The notes under the pieces: model-generated
Told to the model about the DNA's origin: nothing
The model's database searches: none
Seen by the model: the letters and a program-made list of their open reading frames with translations, nothing else
Part shown: in pieces, positions 13,216 to 42,660 of the stretch
How the letters are laid out: the number at the start of each line of letters is the position of its first letter
Position numbering within the stretch: the first letter of the stretch is position 1
Translations under genes and position numbers: made by a program
From: a candidate division WOR-3 bacterium
GTDB taxonomy: Bacteria > Hydrothermota > Tepidihabitantia > B3-TA06
NCBI GenBank assembly: GCA_965649265.1
Contig: CBFGKC010000005.1
Coordinates: 128,629 to 192,628 of the forward strand
DNA: 64,000 nt
Reading direction: 5' to 3'

Positions 13216-13977
13216 ATGGAAAGAAGGATCGTGACATTAATCACAGCTTTTATCCTGTTGATTTGCCTGGCGGACTGCGAGGAACAATTGGATATCAGCA
13301 ATCCCGGAGGACAAAAACAAATACCGCAGGGGTTTGAAGGGGCAGGTTCGGGTCCCTATCACACTTTTGCGTTGGGCAAAAAGTGGGAGTATGAGGGAAT
13401 AATCCATGAAAGTATTGACTATCCTGAAGGTTTGGGTGTTGCAGACACATCCTGGACGGAGAAAACCAGAGACATAAGCGAGGTCATAAGAGAAACCGAA
13501 CTCACCGGTACGCTTCCTGTCCTGGTCTGGGAGGTGAAAACGTCACATTACTTAAACGATACGTTCAACTTTGACGATTATTACTACGTTCATGTCGACG
13601 TTGATTCAGCCTACTTTTACGATGAAATTTACGATTCGGTACCTGTTTCGGTCAGTCCTGCGAAGCTCGGGCTGGGCGACGAGTGGATACAGGTTTTTCA
13701 GCTGAGCGACACCGCAACAGATACGATCAAATACAAGGTCATTGCGGATAACGTTGAGGCCAACGGGTATTCCCCTTGTTTGAAGATAGAGGTAACCTTT
13801 CCAAACACGGAAATGTTTGCAGAATACGAGCAGTTCCAGTACTGGGCAAAGAACGAGGGAAGCGTTCTCTCTACTATCCACCAGAAGATGATTTACGATT
13901 TGGGCGAAGAGGGACAAATGATCATTACAATAGAGGACACCATAAGACTCCTAGGAGACCTGGGCATAGTGGAGTGA
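13216..13977 (+). CDS. Probable lipoprotein, distant paralog of 12397-13029
   Basis: ATG 13216 after AGGAGG; G.KW.Y, LKI.VT and W.K..GSV shared with the upstream gene. Confidence 0.75.
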   Translation: MERRIVTLITAFILLICLADCEEQLDISNPGGQKQIPQGFEGAGSGPYHTFALGKKWEYEGIIHESIDYPEGLGVADTSWTEKTRDISEVIRETELTGTLPVLVWEVKTSHYLNDTFNFDDYYYVHVDVDSAYFYDEIYDSVPVSVSPAKLGLGDEWIQVFQLSDTATDTIKYKVIADNVEANGYSPCLKIEVTFPNTEMFAEYEQFQYWAKNEGSVLSTIHQKMIYDLGEEGQMIITIEDTIRLLGDLGIVE

Positions 13978-38785: not shown

Positions 38786-38968
38786 ATGAAGGTGAAAATC
38801 GATGCCGAAGCTTGTATCGGCTGCGGAGTTTGCGCGGATATATGCCCGCAAGTCTTTGAATTGAAAGATGACAAGGCGGTCGTTGTTTCCGGCGCGGATT
38901 GCGGCGGCGCAGGATGCTGTCAGGAAGCGTCCGAATCCTGCCCAACTCAGGCAATAGTCGTCGAGTAA
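38786..38968 (+). CDS. fdx: Ferredoxin (single 4Fe-4S cluster type)
   Basis: CIGCGVC..CP and CPTQAI; SD AAGGAGG; promoter TTGACA-N16-TATACT at 38730. Confidence 0.95.
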   Translation: MKVKIDAEACIGCGVCADICPQVFELKDDKAVVVSGADCGGAGCCQEASESCPTQAIVVE

Positions 38969-38988: not shown

Positions 38989-39022
38989 GGCGGGGAAGAT
39001 TTCTTCCCCGTTCTTTTTTTTT
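38989..39022 (+). terminator. Intrinsic terminator of ferredoxin
   Basis: CGGGGAAGA-TT-TCTTCCCCG followed by T9. Confidence 0.88.
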
Positions 39023-39032
39023 GAACTCAATC

Positions 39033-39085
39033 AAAAAAACCGCCCCCGGACGGGGGCGGTACAGGAGGTGTTTCTGAGGAGGGCT
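39033..39085 (-). ncRNA. Candidate ~53-nt sRNA with two anti-SD motifs
   Basis: Perfect TTGACA-N16-TATAAT (39119-39092, minus); CCCUCCU and CACCUCCU; ACCGCCCCCG/CGGGGGCGGU stem + U7; no ORF. Confidence 0.65.
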
Positions 39086-39300
39086 ACTTAGATTATAGTC
39101 AAGAGCCGAAGCCTGTCAAGTCCCTTAAGGCTAACTCTAAGCCTCATATATATAAGAGTTACAATGAAAGTACTTAACTTAGCTAATTAGTTTATCGGGC
39201 AACATTCCACAAAGAATCCCGCATCAAAGGACAAGAGCACCAGAAACAACCTAAACGATTTCATGTGTGTGCGTTTTTTATACTACGGCACTAATCCGGA

Positions 39301-40785
39301 TTAGCCGGGTAGTTTTCGCTTGATCCTTCCGGACGATAGTTGATCCTTTGGCGGTTTCTCTTTCCTTCCGGCGGCAGCCAGGCTGGTTTTAGCGGTACCC
39401 GGTTTACGAGGAGTAACACCCTCCAAATCCCCCTTATCGAAGGAGGAATTGGCCACTATGGTCGAAAATGCAATAAAGAGCCACAGCGTTATATGGTGCT
39501 GAGTCGAAAGGAAAAAATGAGCAAGAAGCGAACTTCCAAACCCAACGAACAAGCCCTCCATTTGGAGAGTTTTTTGCCGGTCGCCCTGTTTAAAATAGTA
39601 CTTTCGGGCACGAAGAAAGTTGCGTAACGCAAAAAACAAGATGACGGCGAATGGTATAAAACCGAAAAGACCCGTTCCGGAAAGTATTTCCAGGTAAGCG
39701 TCATGAATAACAGGGACTACATTGCGAGCGCTGGTTTGTGAGTAATATCCGAATATCCACCTGAAACAATCCGCACCTACTCCAAATAAAGGGTGGTCAA
39801 AGAAAATTCGCAGTGCCGTTACGGCAAAATAACCACGCCAGTCCACTGATGCGGCACGAGCTCCCCTGAGAAATGTTTCGAGATTCATACCTTTGGAGAA
39901 AATTTCGAAAAAACTCAAGTACAACAATCCTACCAATACAATTGACATCACAAAGAAAAGCAAGAGCTTCCTCTGTCTCCAGAAAAGGACGAATTGTGTG
40001 GGAATAAGAACGAGCAGCATGCTCCGGGAAAAGGTCAAGGGAACGGTTACAGTCATCAGAAAATATGCGCCGAAGTACAGAAACTTTTTCCATTTGCTCG
40101 TTGAACTGACACCAAAATAAAAGGCGAAACATAAAAAGGGCAGCAGCCAGAACCCGAAGTAATTCGGGTCACTCATGGTCCCGGTCGCCCTCACCAGAGG
40201 ATTGTTTAACACTTTTTGAACTATGGCGATAATCGATTCAATTGTAAGACTGACGATAAGAACATTTATAATTGTATTTACACGTTTTTGTTCTCCCAGG
40301 ATATTAACGAATACCCAGTACGCCACAAAATTCCCTAAAAACAGGAAGATACCTGCAAAAGTGTTCTCGAGGTCAAACATCGCAAGCAAGGAGAGAACGC
40401 ATCCCACCAGGAACATAAGTATCGAGGCCCCGACAGGGGTTATTTTAAAAGTCTCGGTCTTTTTAGACATAAGGATCGACGGTATAGAAAGAACGACCAA
40501 AACCAACCCACCAAAACGAACAAAGCTCTCCATGGGAATAAAGTCGCCGACTATATAAGAGAACGGAGTCAGAAGAAAATAAACTAACCAGAACGGATAG
40601 GGATTATAGATGGCTAGAATCAGGATGAGCAGAATGAGGGGCAAAAGCGCGATTACGATTCCGGTAATCCCCGAAACGTATAAACCGAGGATCGCACTAA
40701 GTCCCAGAGCCAAAAGAGATGCCAGCGCGACCCACGCGGGCTCCCGGCTCATTCGTTCTATCTTTGATCCAGACATCTCCGTCAC
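39301..40785 (-). CDS. O-antigen ligase (Wzy_C) family membrane protein
   Basis: RATGT..DPNYFG; TFSRS; HPLFGVG; HDAYLEIL..TGLFG; ~12 TM; AT-richer than flanks. Confidence 0.85.
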   Translation of the reverse strand: MTEMSGSKIERMSREPAWVALASLLALGLSAILGLYVSGITGIVIALLPLILLILILAIYNPYPFWLVYFLLTPFSYIVGDFIPMESFVRFGGLVLVVLSIPSILMSKKTETFKITPVGASILMFLVGCVLSLLAMFDLENTFAGIFLFLGNFVAYWVFVNILGEQKRVNTIINVLIVSLTIESIIAIVQKVLNNPLVRATGTMSDPNYFGFWLLPFLCFAFYFGVSSTSKWKKFLYFGAYFLMTVTVPLTFSRSMLLVLIPTQFVLFWRQRKLLLFFVMSIVLVGLLYLSFFEIFSKGMNLETFLRGARAASVDWRGYFAVTALRIFFDHPLFGVGADCFRWIFGYYSQTSARNVVPVIHDAYLEILSGTGLFGFIPFAVILFFALRNFLRARKYYFKQGDRQKTLQMEGLFVGFGSSLLAHFFLSTQHHITLWLFIAFSTIVANSSFDKGDLEGVTPRKPGTAKTSLAAAGRKEKPPKDQLSSGRIKRKLPG

Positions 40786-40959
40786 TTTCCGACAACTCCT
40801 GAAGTGGTCATACGTCCATGCACACCTAACTCTACGGATTCCTAAACGATTGTCAATTATCGAGCATTAGTATTTAAGAACGATCTTCCGGCAAGAAACC
40901 GAGTAACTTGCTAAAATAATGAGACTTGACGAGCAAAGAATCCTCCATATAATCACCCG

Positions 40960-42660
40960 ATGATATGGTCTAAATCCCTTGTGCCGACTCTGCGGGAAGA
41001 CCCGCGTCAGGCGGAAAATTTGAGCCACAAGGTTCTATTGAGAGCCGGTTTTATAAGGCCTGTTGGATCGGGACTTTACAACATTCTCCCCCTGGGACTA
41101 AGGGTTACGAACAAGATCACGAAGATAATCAGGGAGGAGATGGACCGCATAGGCGGACAGGAGATGCACCTTTCCGCGCTCTCACCCAGGACCATATGGG
41201 ACCAGTCGGGCCGCTGGTCGGCGTTCGGCGACGACATGTTTCGTCTGGTGGACCGCAAGGGACAGGATATGGCCCTTTGTCCGACTCATGAGGAGATAAT
41301 GGCCCTCATTGCATCAAAGGAGCTGCGTTCTTACAAGGAACTTCCCCAAATATGGTATCAGTTCCAGACCAAGTTCCGCGACGAGCCCAGACCAAGGGGG
41401 GGGGTCCTGAGGACGCGCCAGTTCACGATGAAGGATTCATACAGTTTTGATATAGACGTGGACGGTCTGCACCGCTCATACAAATTGAACGAGGAGGCTT
41501 ACTCGAGGGCATTCATGCGTATGGGCCACAAGTTTTTCATAGTCCAGGCCTCAGGCGGACTTATGGGAACCGGGGAGAGCGCCGAATTCATGGTCGAGGC
41601 GGAATCGGGTGAGGACATAGCCATCTGCTGTCCGAAATGCGACTACCGGGCAAACGCCGAGGTCGCCGAGGCTCAAGTTACGGCTTCACCTGCACTTGAG
41701 GCCAGGAGGGAGAAGGTGCACACTCCAAACCAGAGAAGCGTTGAGGAAGTTGCAGCCTTTCTGGGAGTTAAACCCTCACAGCTCGTCAAGAGCCTCCTGT
41801 ACACGAGACAGGGTAAGCCCCTCCTGGTGCTCGTGCGCGGTGATTACGAGTTGAGCGAGGAGAAGCTTAAACGTACCTTCGGCAAGGAATTGGTTCCGGC
41901 GACCGACGAGGACGCAAGAAAGTACATGGGGGCATCCCTGGGGTTTCTGGGGCCGCAAGGGTTAAAAATCGAGGTTTATGCTGATAAGAGCCTTGAGGGT
42001 TCGGATACGTATGCCGCGGGAGCTAATGAGGACGATCACCACATCGTGGGTATAAGTCTTTCGAAGGAGGTAAATATACGGGAGTATCTGGACTTGAGGA
42101 TGGTGCGGGCAGGAGACGGCTGCCCCAGGTGCGCGGCACCAATTGAGGAGAAGAAAACGATCGAACTCGGGCATATCTTTAAACTTGGGACAAAGTATTC
42201 CGAGGCCATGGGTGCGACCGTCCTGGACGAGAACGGAAACCAGCGCGTGATCGTGATGGGTTCTTACGGCATAGGGATAGAACGCTCGATGGCCGCTCTG
42301 GTTGACGAGCATTTCAGGGACGACAGGATGGCCTGGCCGGTGAACGTGGCGCCGTATGAGGTCGAGGTCGTCTCACTCGGGGAGAACGAGCGGTCGGAGA
42401 CGTTTTATTCGGAACTTTGCTCGAAGGGTATTGAAACGGCGTTTGACGACCGTGAACTCGCCCCCGGAGCCAAGTTTGCAGACGCGGATCTGGTGGGAAT
42501 TCCATACAGGCTGGTCGTGGGTCCACGGGGTCTCAAGGAAGGCAAAGTGGACATAAAGAAAGTGGCGACGAATGAACTCATCCCGGTGTCCGTTAACGAC
42601 GCGGTAAGCAAGGTCTCGGAACTTGTCGCGGCGGAAAAGAAGGCGACTTGCCGTGACTGA
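40960..42660 (+). CDS. proS: Prolyl-tRNA synthetase (bacterial type with editing domain)
   Basis: PTHEE; KFRDEPRPRGGVLRTRQF.MKDSYSF; IELGHIFKLGTKYS; MGSYGIG. Confidence 0.97.
   Translation: MIWSKSLVPTLREDPRQAENLSHKVLLRAGFIRPVGSGLYNILPLGLRVTNKITKIIREEMDRIGGQEMHLSALSPRTIWDQSGRWSAFGDDMFRLVDRKGQDMALCPTHEEIMALIASKELRSYKELPQIWYQFQTKFRDEPRPRGGVLRTRQFTMKDSYSFDIDVDGLHRSYKLNEEAYSRAFMRMGHKFFIVQASGGLMGTGESAEFMVEAESGEDIAICCPKCDYRANAEVAEAQVTASPALEARREKVHTPNQRSVEEVAAFLGVKPSQLVKSLLYTRQGKPLLVLVRGDYELSEEKLKRTFGKELVPATDEDARKYMGASLGFLGPQGLKIEVYADKSLEGSDTYAAGANEDDHHIVGISLSKEVNIREYLDLRMVRAGDGCPRCAAPIEEKKTIELGHIFKLGTKYSEAMGATVLDENGNQRVIVMGSYGIGIERSMAALVDEHFRDDRMAWPVNVAPYEVEVVSLGENERSETFYSELCSKGIETAFDDRELAPGAKFADADLVGIPYRLVVGPRGLKEGKVDIKKVATNELIPVSVNDAVSKVSELVAAEKKATCRD

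What the first reader, a model, noticed from the sequence alone, without database searches (positions are those of the whole stretch)
39033..39119. Tiny stand-alone sRNA carrying two anti-Shine-Dalgarno motifs
Seen on the minus strand: a perfect TTGACA-N16-TATAAT promoter, then AGCCCUCCUCAGAAACACCUCCUGU-ACCGCCCCCG-UC-CGGGGGCGGU-U6, with no ORF. The unpaired ~25 nt are almost entirely CCUCCU motifs, and CACCUCCU equals the 16S rRNA 3' tail. The 5' end AGCCCUCCU nearly complements the neighbouring ferredoxin RBS (AGGAGGCU). Inference: a 16S-tail-mimic RNA that represses SD-led mRNAs while sparing the leaderless ones seen in this window, potentially a global translation switch.
Basis: partly seen in the sequence, partly recalled or inferred. 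Interest (0 to 1): 0.75.

Follow-up and report, generated by a model that had tools for sequence, protein, structure and literature searches.

The report
Ultraconserved tiny anti-Shine-Dalgarno sRNA gene
This is very likely a real, free-standing gene for a ~52-nucleotide regulatory RNA, kept letter-for-letter identical across a family of uncultured Stahlbacteria (WOR-3), whose exposed CCUCCU motifs could bind ribosome-binding sites of mRNAs, though its targets and expression remain unproven.

Summary
On the minus strand a 12/12 TTGACA-N16-TATAAT promoter (39119-39092) precedes a 25-nt unpaired stretch with two CCUCCU motifs. One motif, CACCUCCU, matches the genome's own 16S 3' tail. A 9-bp GC hairpin and a U-tract follow, and there is no ORF.

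Comparative evidence:
- The transcribed part is 100% identical in all 11 of 11 family genomes (4 genera) and in 5 metagenome contigs. Only two loop positions and the U-tail vary.
- The promoter spacer, the 6 nt before +1 and both flanks vary freely.
- The -35 box, -10 box and 16-nt spacing are invariant.
- In one genus the upstream gene is divergent, so the element is not merely the ligase gene's terminator.
- It matches no Rfam family. A covariance model found it only in this family among 151 phylum genomes.

Function is inferred, not shown. The most likely role is an Hfq-independent trans-acting anti-SD riboregulator. It pairs with canonical SDs as strongly as the 16S tail does.

Evidence against a specific regulon: the ferredoxin RBS match is only the generic SD core, and the extended complementarity of 5 top candidate targets is not conserved in orthologues. 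The "global SD versus leaderless switch" remains speculation, and no expression data were obtainable.

Verdict: a new sRNA family of a known kind.

The parts
39114..39119 (-). -35 box TTGACA (CTTGACA invariant across the family)
39092..39097 (-). -10 box TATAAT, 16-nt spacer of variable sequence but fixed length
39033..39085 (-). Inferred transcript (~52-53 nt). The inferred +1 is A39085, the 7th nt after the -10 box, and sequence invariance begins exactly there.
   Evidence: In one search, contigs from relatives lose identity exactly at 39085 and 39032. The +1 spacing matches leaderless genes of this genome by my reading.
39077..39082 (-). Anti-SD motif 1, CCUCCU (RNA nt 4-9), inside the 5'-terminal AGCCCUCCUCAG
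39063..39070 (-). Anti-SD motif 2, CACCUCCU (RNA nt 16-23), identical to 8 nt of the 16S 3' tail
39039..39060 (-). 9-bp GC-rich hairpin ACCGCCCCC/GGGGGCGGU with a 4-nt loop. Loop positions 1-2 vary between genomes and loop positions 3-4 (CC) are invariant.
39033..39038 (-). U-tract of the intrinsic terminator (variable between genomes)
38786..38968 (+). Convergent 60-aa 4Fe-4S ferredoxin gene, the only neighbour kept in all loci
38989..39012 (+). The ferredoxin gene's own terminator. It is missing in G008 and G009, where the sRNA hairpin lies 27-28 nt after the ferredoxin stop codon.
39301..40785 (-). Upstream O-antigen-ligase-like gene on the same strand. It is present in genera g1, g3 and g4 and is replaced by a divergent PurM-like gene in g2. 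Both names are my reading of the translated sequences; no family search was run on them.

Best explanation
This is an independent gene for a ~52-nt non-coding RNA. It is transcribed from a consensus sigma-70-type promoter starting at A39085 and ends at its own intrinsic terminator. The first 25 nt are single-stranded and carry two anti-Shine-Dalgarno seeds, AGCCCUCCUC at the very 5' end and ACACCUCCUGU. The GC hairpin stabilises the RNA.

Most likely it works as an Hfq-independent, trans-acting base-pairing RNA. It would occupy GGAGG-type ribosome-binding sites of several mRNAs and so lower their translation.

Shown: the gene anatomy, its conservation, its family restriction, and its pairing capacity. 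Inferred: that it is transcribed, that it binds RBSs in the cell, and that it represses.
For: Anatomy:
- scores the promoter 12/12 and finds the terminator.
- predicts the 5' 25 nt unpaired.

Conservation:
- One search finds the locus in 10 of 10 other family genomes and in 0 of 30 genomes of other families.
- Searches show the transcribed sequence identical in all 20 loci held (13 distinct contexts), apart from loop positions 1-2, one extra C in one genome's stem and the U-tail.
- One search shows CTTGACA, TATAAT and the 16-nt spacing invariant. The spacer letters, the 6 nt before +1 and the flanks vary.
- Orthologous proteins of the same genomes are only 63-82% identical over their best matches. 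The ferredoxin-region DNA is 66-75% identical.

Stand-alone gene:
- In genus g2 (G002, G005 and metagenome locus L031) the upstream gene is on the other strand.

Pairing capacity:
- Predicted duplexes with canonical SDs equal those of the 16S tail. For AAGGAGGUG the values are -14.5 versus -14.0 kcal/mol.
- SD-led genes are abundant, 1120 of 2284 crude gene calls.

Chaperones:
- No Hfq or CsrA match in the 96%-complete genome.

Known precedents (passages read):
- The cuckoo/alpha-r14/NfeR1 sRNAs use redundant anti-SD motifs to occlude RBSs (PMC4615179, PMC10746234).
- Yfr1 is a 54-69-nt sRNA with an ultraconserved unpaired CU-rich motif and a GC terminator (PMC2190773).
Against: No transcript evidence. 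The only RNA-library hit is a relative's copy inside a 1840-nt assembled contig, which shows neither ends nor strand.

No conserved specific target:
- Among 1590 SD-type initiation regions, only 16 have 9 or more contiguous complementary nt.
- I picked 8 top candidates by eye and tested 5: a TadA-like deaminase, an SSF symporter, a response regulator, an FtsX-like permease and a 155-aa protein. In none do the orthologues keep more than the generic SD core.
- The ferredoxin RBS match is generic.
- A 10-nt complement of the 5' end lies mostly in coding or repeat DNA in relatives, not at start codons.

Complete invariance of all 25 unpaired nt and of the stem is more than a 6-8-nt seed would need. 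That fits a protein or ribosome partner at least as well.

All sequences are identical, so no covariation can support the hairpin.
Confidence: 0.5

Rival explanations
1. It is a decoy or mimic of the 16S rRNA 3' tail. An abundant, constitutively made RNA would either titrate a factor that recognises the anti-SD tail (a maturation or assembly factor, or a tail-cutting endoribonuclease), or compete with ribosomes for all SD sequences. That would shift translation towards leaderless mRNAs, which is the first reader's 'global switch'.
For: - It shares 8 nt (CACCUCCU) with the 16S tail.
- Its predicted SD affinity equals that of the tail.
- All 25 unpaired nt, the stem and two loop positions are invariant, more than seed pairing needs.
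- No operator-like block is conserved upstream of the -35 box across genera, which is compatible with constitutive expression.
- No conserved specific target was found.
- SD-led genes (~49%) and leaderless-type genes (~14%) coexist.
- A MazF toxin that removes the 16S anti-SD is in print (PMC12274833; search listing and start of abstract only).
Against: - No candidate partner protein was identified, and there is no neighbouring toxin or factor gene.
- The abundance of the RNA is unknown.
- Equal affinity means it would have to outnumber ribosomes near the mRNAs.
- The identity with the tail is only 8 nt and the flanks differ.
- No precedent for such a global competitor turned up in my two literature searches, which are not exhaustive.
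Confidence: 0.2
2. Its role is tied to the convergent ferredoxin gene. Ferredoxin transcripts that read through would carry a perfect antisense of the sRNA. The pair would then act as a cis-antisense module or a shared bidirectional terminator that controls ferredoxin mRNA 3' ends, or the ferredoxin 3' UTR would sponge the sRNA.
For: - The ferredoxin gene is the only neighbour kept in all loci examined, including genus g2 where the other flank changed.
- In G008 and G009 the ferredoxin gene has no terminator of its own. The sRNA hairpin lies 27-28 nt after its stop codon.
Against: - Cis-antisense pairing is automatic and would not demand an invariant sequence.
- 11 of the 13 loci have a separate GC hairpin with a T-run after the ferredoxin gene (hairpins judged by eye from the printed 3' regions).
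- On the ferredoxin strand the shared hairpin is not followed by a U-tract.
- Two genes 60-100 nt apart can stay linked by chance.
Confidence: 0.08
3. It is not a gene of its own. The hairpin would simply terminate the upstream O-antigen-ligase-like gene, and the promoter-like and CCUCCU sequences would be chance or repeat debris of this repeat-rich genome.
For: - This genome carries 154 copies of CCCTCCTCAG, many of them in tandem arrays of 9-13-nt period.
- It has 15-19-nt identities to the sRNA 5' part elsewhere.
- No terminator-like site lies between the ligase stop codon (39301) and the sRNA promoter, so the hairpin probably also ends ligase transcripts.
Against: - The repeat expansion is specific to this genome: 126 copies of GCCCTCCTCAG against 1-16 in 5 relatives. 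G004 has only the copy in the sRNA gene itself.
- The sRNA is identical in all relatives.
- Promoter hexamers, their spacing and the +1 position are conserved while the surrounding DNA is not.
- In genus g2 there is no upstream same-strand gene to terminate.
Confidence: 0.03

Closest known systems
Cuckoo / alpha-r14 family (RSs0680/CcsR, NfeR1) of alphaproteobacteria
   Same: Trans-encoded sRNAs with two or more redundant, ultraconserved anti-SD motifs. They silence mRNAs by occluding the RBS, and NfeR1 is reported to be Hfq-independent (passages read in PMC4615179 and PMC10746234).
   Different: There the motif is CCUCCUCCC, displayed in the loops of 2-4 hairpins whose stems vary freely. Here two CCUCCU motifs lie in one linear 5' single strand, there is a single terminator hairpin, the RNA is about 52 nt, and everything including the stem is invariant. 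The phylum differs (WOR-3). No Rfam model matched at its threshold.
Yfr1 of cyanobacteria
   Same: A tiny (54-69 nt) abundant sRNA with a perfectly conserved unpaired CU-rich motif, a GC-rich hairpin plus U-tail as terminator, and a conserved genomic position (passages read in PMC2190773).
   Different: Yfr1 has a second 5' stem-loop and an 11-nt conserved core, ACUCCUCACAC. Here there is no 5' hairpin, 25 nt are conserved, and two full anti-SD hexamers are present. There is no sequence homology.
RsaE/RoxS-type C-rich sRNAs of Firmicutes (recalled from memory, not looked up here)
   Same: C-rich unpaired motifs that pair with G-rich SD regions of several mRNAs.
   Different: Different motifs (CCCC/UCCC), longer multi-hairpin RNAs, a different phylum. 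There was no Rfam match here.
CyaR_RyeE (RF00112), the best sub-threshold Rfam match
   Same: A small sRNA ending in a terminator hairpin. It matched over 39033-39108 on the minus strand.
   Different: 23.5 bits against a gathering score of 47. The match is most likely carried by the terminator hairpin, so this is not a family member.

Membership tests
Bacterial trans-encoded sRNA gene (generic kind) | Own promoter and own intrinsic terminator in an intergenic region, with no ORF | tested here: met
   Promoter and terminator are conserved in 11 of 11 family genomes. The upstream gene is divergent in genus g2.
Bacterial trans-encoded sRNA gene (generic kind) | A discrete transcript of the predicted size is detected | tested here: inconclusive
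   Only assembled contigs were available. One 1840-nt contig of a metatranscriptome run holds a relative's copy, with no ends or strand.
Anti-SD base-pairing sRNA (works-like class) | Accessible CCUCC-type motif able to pair with RBSs | tested here: met
   The motifs are unpaired in the MFE and centroid folds. Duplex energies equal those of the 16S tail.
Anti-SD base-pairing sRNA (works-like class) | Conserved complementarity to translation initiation regions of orthologous mRNAs | tested here: not met
   Of 5 candidates tested, none keeps more than the generic SD core in orthologues. The same holds for ferredoxin. This is a limited test: crude gene calls, and 5 of 8 hand-picked top candidates.
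Cuckoo / alpha-r14 (NfeR1, CcsR) | CCUCCUCCC motif in the loops of 2-4 adjacent hairpins | tested here: not met
   There is no CCUCCUCCC, the motifs lie in a linear 5' strand, and there is one hairpin. No Rfam match at gathering score.
Yfr1 | Unpaired ACUCCUCACAC between two stem-loops | tested here: not met
   The sequence and the fold differ.
Any Rfam 15 family | Score at or above the family's gathering threshold | tested here: not met
   There were 0 matches in the 64-kb window at gathering score. The best in the region is 24 bits or less against thresholds of 39-100.
Hfq-dependent sRNA | Hfq encoded in the genome | tested here: not met
   PF17209 found no match in the 96.4%-complete genome. 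CsrA is also not found.

The most novel reading that the evidence does not exclude
The RNA is a constitutively made mimic of the 16S rRNA 3' tail. It binds SD sequences as well as the ribosome does. One possibility is that it acts as a general competitor that sets the balance between SD-led translation (about half of the genes) and leaderless translation (at least 14% of the genes) in these bacteria. The other is that it acts as a decoy protecting the real anti-SD tail from a tail-binding or tail-cutting factor. Complete invariance of all 25 unpaired nt plus the stem, the lack of any conserved specific target and the lack of a conserved operator are not excluded by this reading, and they are mildly favoured by it.
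Probability: 0.12. Interest if true: 0.85.

Novelty: new member of a known kind. Interest (0 to 1): 0.45.

Why it matters
No regulatory RNA turned up in my one search for Stahlbacteria (9 papers, listing only). This is a clean candidate defined by comparative genomics alone. It has exact predicted ends, a 25-nt invariant functional strand and a family-wide distribution. If it works by anti-SD pairing, it extends that strategy beyond Proteobacteria, Firmicutes and Cyanobacteria, in about the smallest format possible (one seed strand plus a terminator). Because the organism mixes SD-led and leaderless genes, the RNA also offers a concrete, synthesisable reagent to test whether an anti-SD mimic can bias initiation modes.

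Tried and rejected
1. Link to the genome's repeats.
- The 5' part resembles the abundant CCCTCCTCAG tandem arrays (9-13-nt period) and the Pro/Thr-linker codons.
- Rejected as a family-wide function. The expansion is specific to G000.
- The arrays show no orientation bias to neighbouring genes: 17, 17, 16 and 16 in the four arrangements.
- The linker matches are in the same sense as the sRNA, so they cannot pair with it.

2. Complementarity to stable RNAs.
- In an 8-kb stretch around the 16S gene the longest complements are 8-9 nt. The 9-nt ones lie beyond the 16S terminator.
- The 23S gene was not located and was not scanned.
- The 43 tRNAs give nothing notable.

3. Homologues outside the family.
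- The covariance model R1 gave at most 24.2 bits outside the family among 151 phylum genomes.
- The 12 best such hits that I inspected lack the promoter and look like coding or plain terminator DNA.

4. Target search.
- RNAduplex over all initiation regions was dominated by repeats and spurious starts.
- Orthologue checks of 5 candidates were negative.
- Family-wide patterns GAGGAGGGCT and AGGAGGGC-N2-10-ATG were enriched over reversed controls in most but not all genomes.
- The recurrent matches I fetched were few. AGGAGGGCGAGATG precedes a Met that by my reading lies inside a coding gene, and I judged the others uninformative.
- A proper CopraRNA-type analysis needs annotated genomes, which I did not have.

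5. Expression.
- The look-up of sequencing runs gave only small shares.
- Of 4 runs laid, 2 gave contigs (X16 one, X15 three) and 2 gave none. This is no evidence for or against transcription.

6. Upstream operator. No block is conserved across genera from -200 to -35.

8. Supplements of papers were not consulted. They do not bear on the claims made here.

Full report
THE OBSERVATION

Read on the minus strand, the window has the following, in order:
- TTGACA at 39119-39114
- a 16-nt spacer
- TATAAT at 39097-39092
- six bases
- AGCCCTCCTCAGAAACACCTCCTGT at 39085-39061
- ACCGCCCCC-GTCC-GGGGGCGGT at 39060-39039
- a T-run down to 39033

The consensus scan scores the promoter 12 of 12 and lists the hairpin as terminator-like. 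The 53-nt RNA folds with nt 1-25 unpaired and a 9-bp stem with a tetraloop (-20.4 kcal/mol; 3 of 200 shuffles fold as well). No minus-strand ORF of 30 aa or more overlaps it, and by reading it has no AUG, GUG or UUG.

The genome's 16S gene ends ...GGATCACCTCCTTTCT, so CACCUCCU is indeed shared with the rRNA tail.

Three small corrections apply. The stem is 9 bp with a 4-nt loop. The two CCUCCU motifs are 12 of the 25 unpaired nt. A perfect promoter is common in this genome: 114 perfect TTGACA-N16-18-TATAAT sites against about 1 expected by my arithmetic. They sit in front of rRNA, tRNA, SD-led and leaderless genes. That makes this promoter type credible rather than odd.

IS IT A GENE?

The organism belongs to Candidatus Stahlbacteria (WOR-3), going by the record titles of relatives that carry the same element.

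Presence across the family:
- A 721-nt query found the locus in 10 of 10 other genomes of the same family (4 genera) and in 0 of 30 genomes of other families of the order and class.
- A 20-nt pattern found 4 true loci plus 1 chance hit inside coding-like sequence of an Oscillospiraceae contig in the species-genome collection.
- The same pattern found 5 true loci plus 1 chance hit in metagenome contigs.

Identity across loci:
- In all 20 loci held (13 distinct contexts), the sequence from A(+1) through the stem is identical.
- The exceptions are loop positions 1-2 (GU, AU, AG, or CAU with an extra C), so that one genome has one extra C in the stem.
- In the 13-sequence alignment, CTTGACA, TATAAT and the 16-nt spacing are invariant.
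- The spacer letters, the six bases between the -10 box and +1, the U-tail and both flanks vary.
- 45 of 47 transcribed positions are invariant, against 2 of 54 flank and spacer positions outside the hexamers.

Background divergence:
- Proteins of the same genomes are only 63-82% identical over their best matches.
- The neighbouring ferredoxin-region DNA is 66-75% identical.
- Contigs of a further relative in public runs lose identity exactly at 39085 and 39032.

This pattern is a conserved promoter geometry, with invariance beginning at the expected +1 and a hairpin followed by a U-run. That is the signature of a transcribed RNA gene under strong purifying selection.

Further points:
- It occurs once in the genome.
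- It matches no Rfam family. There were 0 matches at gathering score in the window, and the best sub-threshold match over the element was CyaR at 23.5 bits against a threshold of 47.
- A covariance model built from it scored 84.5-86.8 bits in the 4 of 4 family genomes sampled. It scored at most 24.2 bits in the other 147 phylum genomes.
- The 12 best outside hits that I inspected lack the promoter and look like coding DNA or plain terminators.
- So it was found only in this family among the genomes searched.

NOT JUST THE LIGASE TERMINATOR

In genera g1, g3 and g4 the order is proS (left-pointing), O-antigen-ligase-like (right), sRNA (right), ferredoxin (left), GGDEF protein (right). In genus g2 (G002, G005) and in metagenome locus L031 the upstream gene is a divergent PurM-like gene. 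The ligase and PurM names are my reading of the translated sequences. In g2 the promoter therefore stands alone.

In this window no terminator-like site lies between the ligase stop codon and the sRNA promoter. The hairpin probably also ends ligase transcripts there.

The convergent 60-61-aa ferredoxin is the only constant neighbour. In G008 and G009 it lacks a terminator of its own and abuts the sRNA hairpin.

WHAT IT MIGHT DO

Capacity:
- Either motif is predicted to pair with canonical SDs as well as the 16S tail does. For AAGGAGGUG the values are -14.5 versus -14.0 kcal/mol, and for AAGGAGG -10.2 versus -10.1.
- The genome uses SDs heavily. With a crude gene caller, 1120 of 2284 genes have GGAGG or AGGAG before a candidate start, against 63 of 1401 internal controls.
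- It also has many leaderless-type genes: 320 of 2284 have a promoter ending 4-9 nt before the start, against 5 of 1401 controls.
- No Hfq or CsrA gene was found in the 96%-complete genome.

Specific targets:
Across 13 loci only AAGGAGG is kept, and the following bases differ.
- Among 1590 SD-type initiation regions, the longest contiguous complement to the sRNA is 9 nt or more in 16 (maximum 11). For the 16S tail it is 9 nt or more in 55.
- I picked 8 top candidates by eye, named them by Pfam and tested 5: a TadA-like deaminase, an SSF symporter, a response regulator, an FtsX-like permease and a 155-aa protein. Their orthologues keep only the SD core.
- Family-wide pattern searches for complements of the 5' end were enriched over reversed controls in most but not all genomes. 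The matches lay mostly in coding or repeat DNA.
- Around the 16S gene and in the tRNAs there is no notable complement, and the 23S gene was not scanned.
- No operator-like block is conserved upstream of the -35 box.

THE REPEATS

This genome alone carries a large expansion of 9-13-nt tandem units (CCCTCCTCAG and variants). It has 126 copies of the 11-mer GCCCTCCTCAG, against 1-16 in five relatives. The resemblance to the sRNA's first 12 nt is therefore not a family-wide functional link. The arrays show no orientation bias to neighbouring genes.

READING

That this is a real, independent, strongly constrained sRNA gene I hold at about 0.9.

The most likely mechanism is trans-acting anti-SD pairing that occludes RBSs. 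This is as in the cuckoo/alpha-r14/NfeR1 sRNAs (PMC4615179, PMC10746234, passages read), in a format close to Yfr1 (PMC2190773, passages read). I put the whole statement at about 0.5.

The total invariance, the absence of conserved extended targets and the lack of a conserved operator keep a 16S-tail-mimic, decoy or general-competitor reading alive (about 0.2). Of that, the 'global SD versus leaderless switch' accounts for about 0.1. A ferredoxin-linked cis role is possible but weak (about 0.08). The terminator-only or chance reading is contradicted (about 0.03).

COMPARISON AND NOVELTY

It works like the anti-SD sRNAs but belongs to none of the known families. It lacks CCUCCUCCC loop motifs, lacks the Yfr1 core and has no Rfam match. 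It is a new family of a known kind, in a phylum for which my one search (listing only) showed no paper on regulatory RNAs.

LIMITS

- Gene calls and start sites are my own crude ones.
- Kin are not independent.
- No covariation is available, because all copies are identical.
- Expression is unproven.

Noticed in passing
Whole genome G000; in the window e.g. 58389-58408 and 60958-60974: There is a genome-specific expansion of tandem repeats of 9-13-nt period (CCCTCCTCAG, CCCCCCTCAG, CCTTCCTCAG, and also CCCGTAACAC). The genome holds 154 copies of CCCTCCTCAG and 138 arrays, about half of them intergenic. The 11-mer GCCCTCCTCAG occurs 126 times here against 1-16 in five relatives. Their origin is unexplained.
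   Followed up: partly
G000, e.g. C3:179330, C12:20733, C17:65, C24:341: In G-rich orientation (CTGAGGAGGG units), 11 of 58 arrays lie within 30 nt upstream of a TTGAC -35 box, and 10 of those have a correctly spaced -10 box. Only 1 of 58 has TTGAC on the other side. Repeats phased at 10 bp in an UP-element-like position may affect promoter activity.
   Followed up: partly
Whole genome G000: There are 114 perfect TTGACA-N16-18-TATAAT promoters in 2.74 Mb, about 1 expected, and most have a 16-nt spacer. Several have no ORF within 130 nt (e.g. C1:121450, C3:140055, C4:122892, C23:3506, C21:3559). These may mark other non-coding RNAs or riboswitches.
   Followed up: no
Window 40926-40962 (proS) and 38707-38674 (GGDEF gene); genome-wide: Leaderless-type arrangement is common, with a promoter ending 4-9 nt before the start codon. 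It occurs at 320 of 2284 crude gene calls against 5 of 1401 internal controls.
   Followed up: partly
G000 C19:29895, C20:2839, C5:62977-63008, C16:19255, C7:85844, C19:24098, C5:156526: A set of similar large ORFs (about 450-580 aa) has Pro/Ser/Thr-rich stretches. One further protein with a C-terminal Por_Secre_tail match just below the Pfam cutoff suggests a T9SS-sorted family. Their coding DNA shares 14-19 nt, in the same sense, with the sRNA 5' part.
   Followed up: partly
L016 (G008) and L018 (G009), downstream of the ferredoxin stop codon: In these two genomes the ferredoxin gene has no terminator of its own. The sRNA hairpin, read antisense, lies 27-28 nt after its stop codon, so convergent transcripts may overlap.
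   Followed up: partly
G000 C7:13970-15625: The 16S rRNA gene is followed about 50 nt later by a strong hairpin and a T-run. No tRNA was found in C7:13001-17200, and by eye no 23S gene lies within the next 1.5 kb, which suggests an unlinked rRNA gene. Two perfect promoters precede it, at 13746 and 13862.
   Followed up: no
G000, many intergenic sites (e.g. C16:2633 context, C9:10741, C11:11362): Other dispersed repeat modules flank the arrays: a double-palindrome (GTCGAAC..GTTCGAC followed by GCGACAT..ATGTCGC) and a ~35-nt unit ending ...GCGCCCCCGGCGCT. They look like REP or MITE elements.
   Followed up: no
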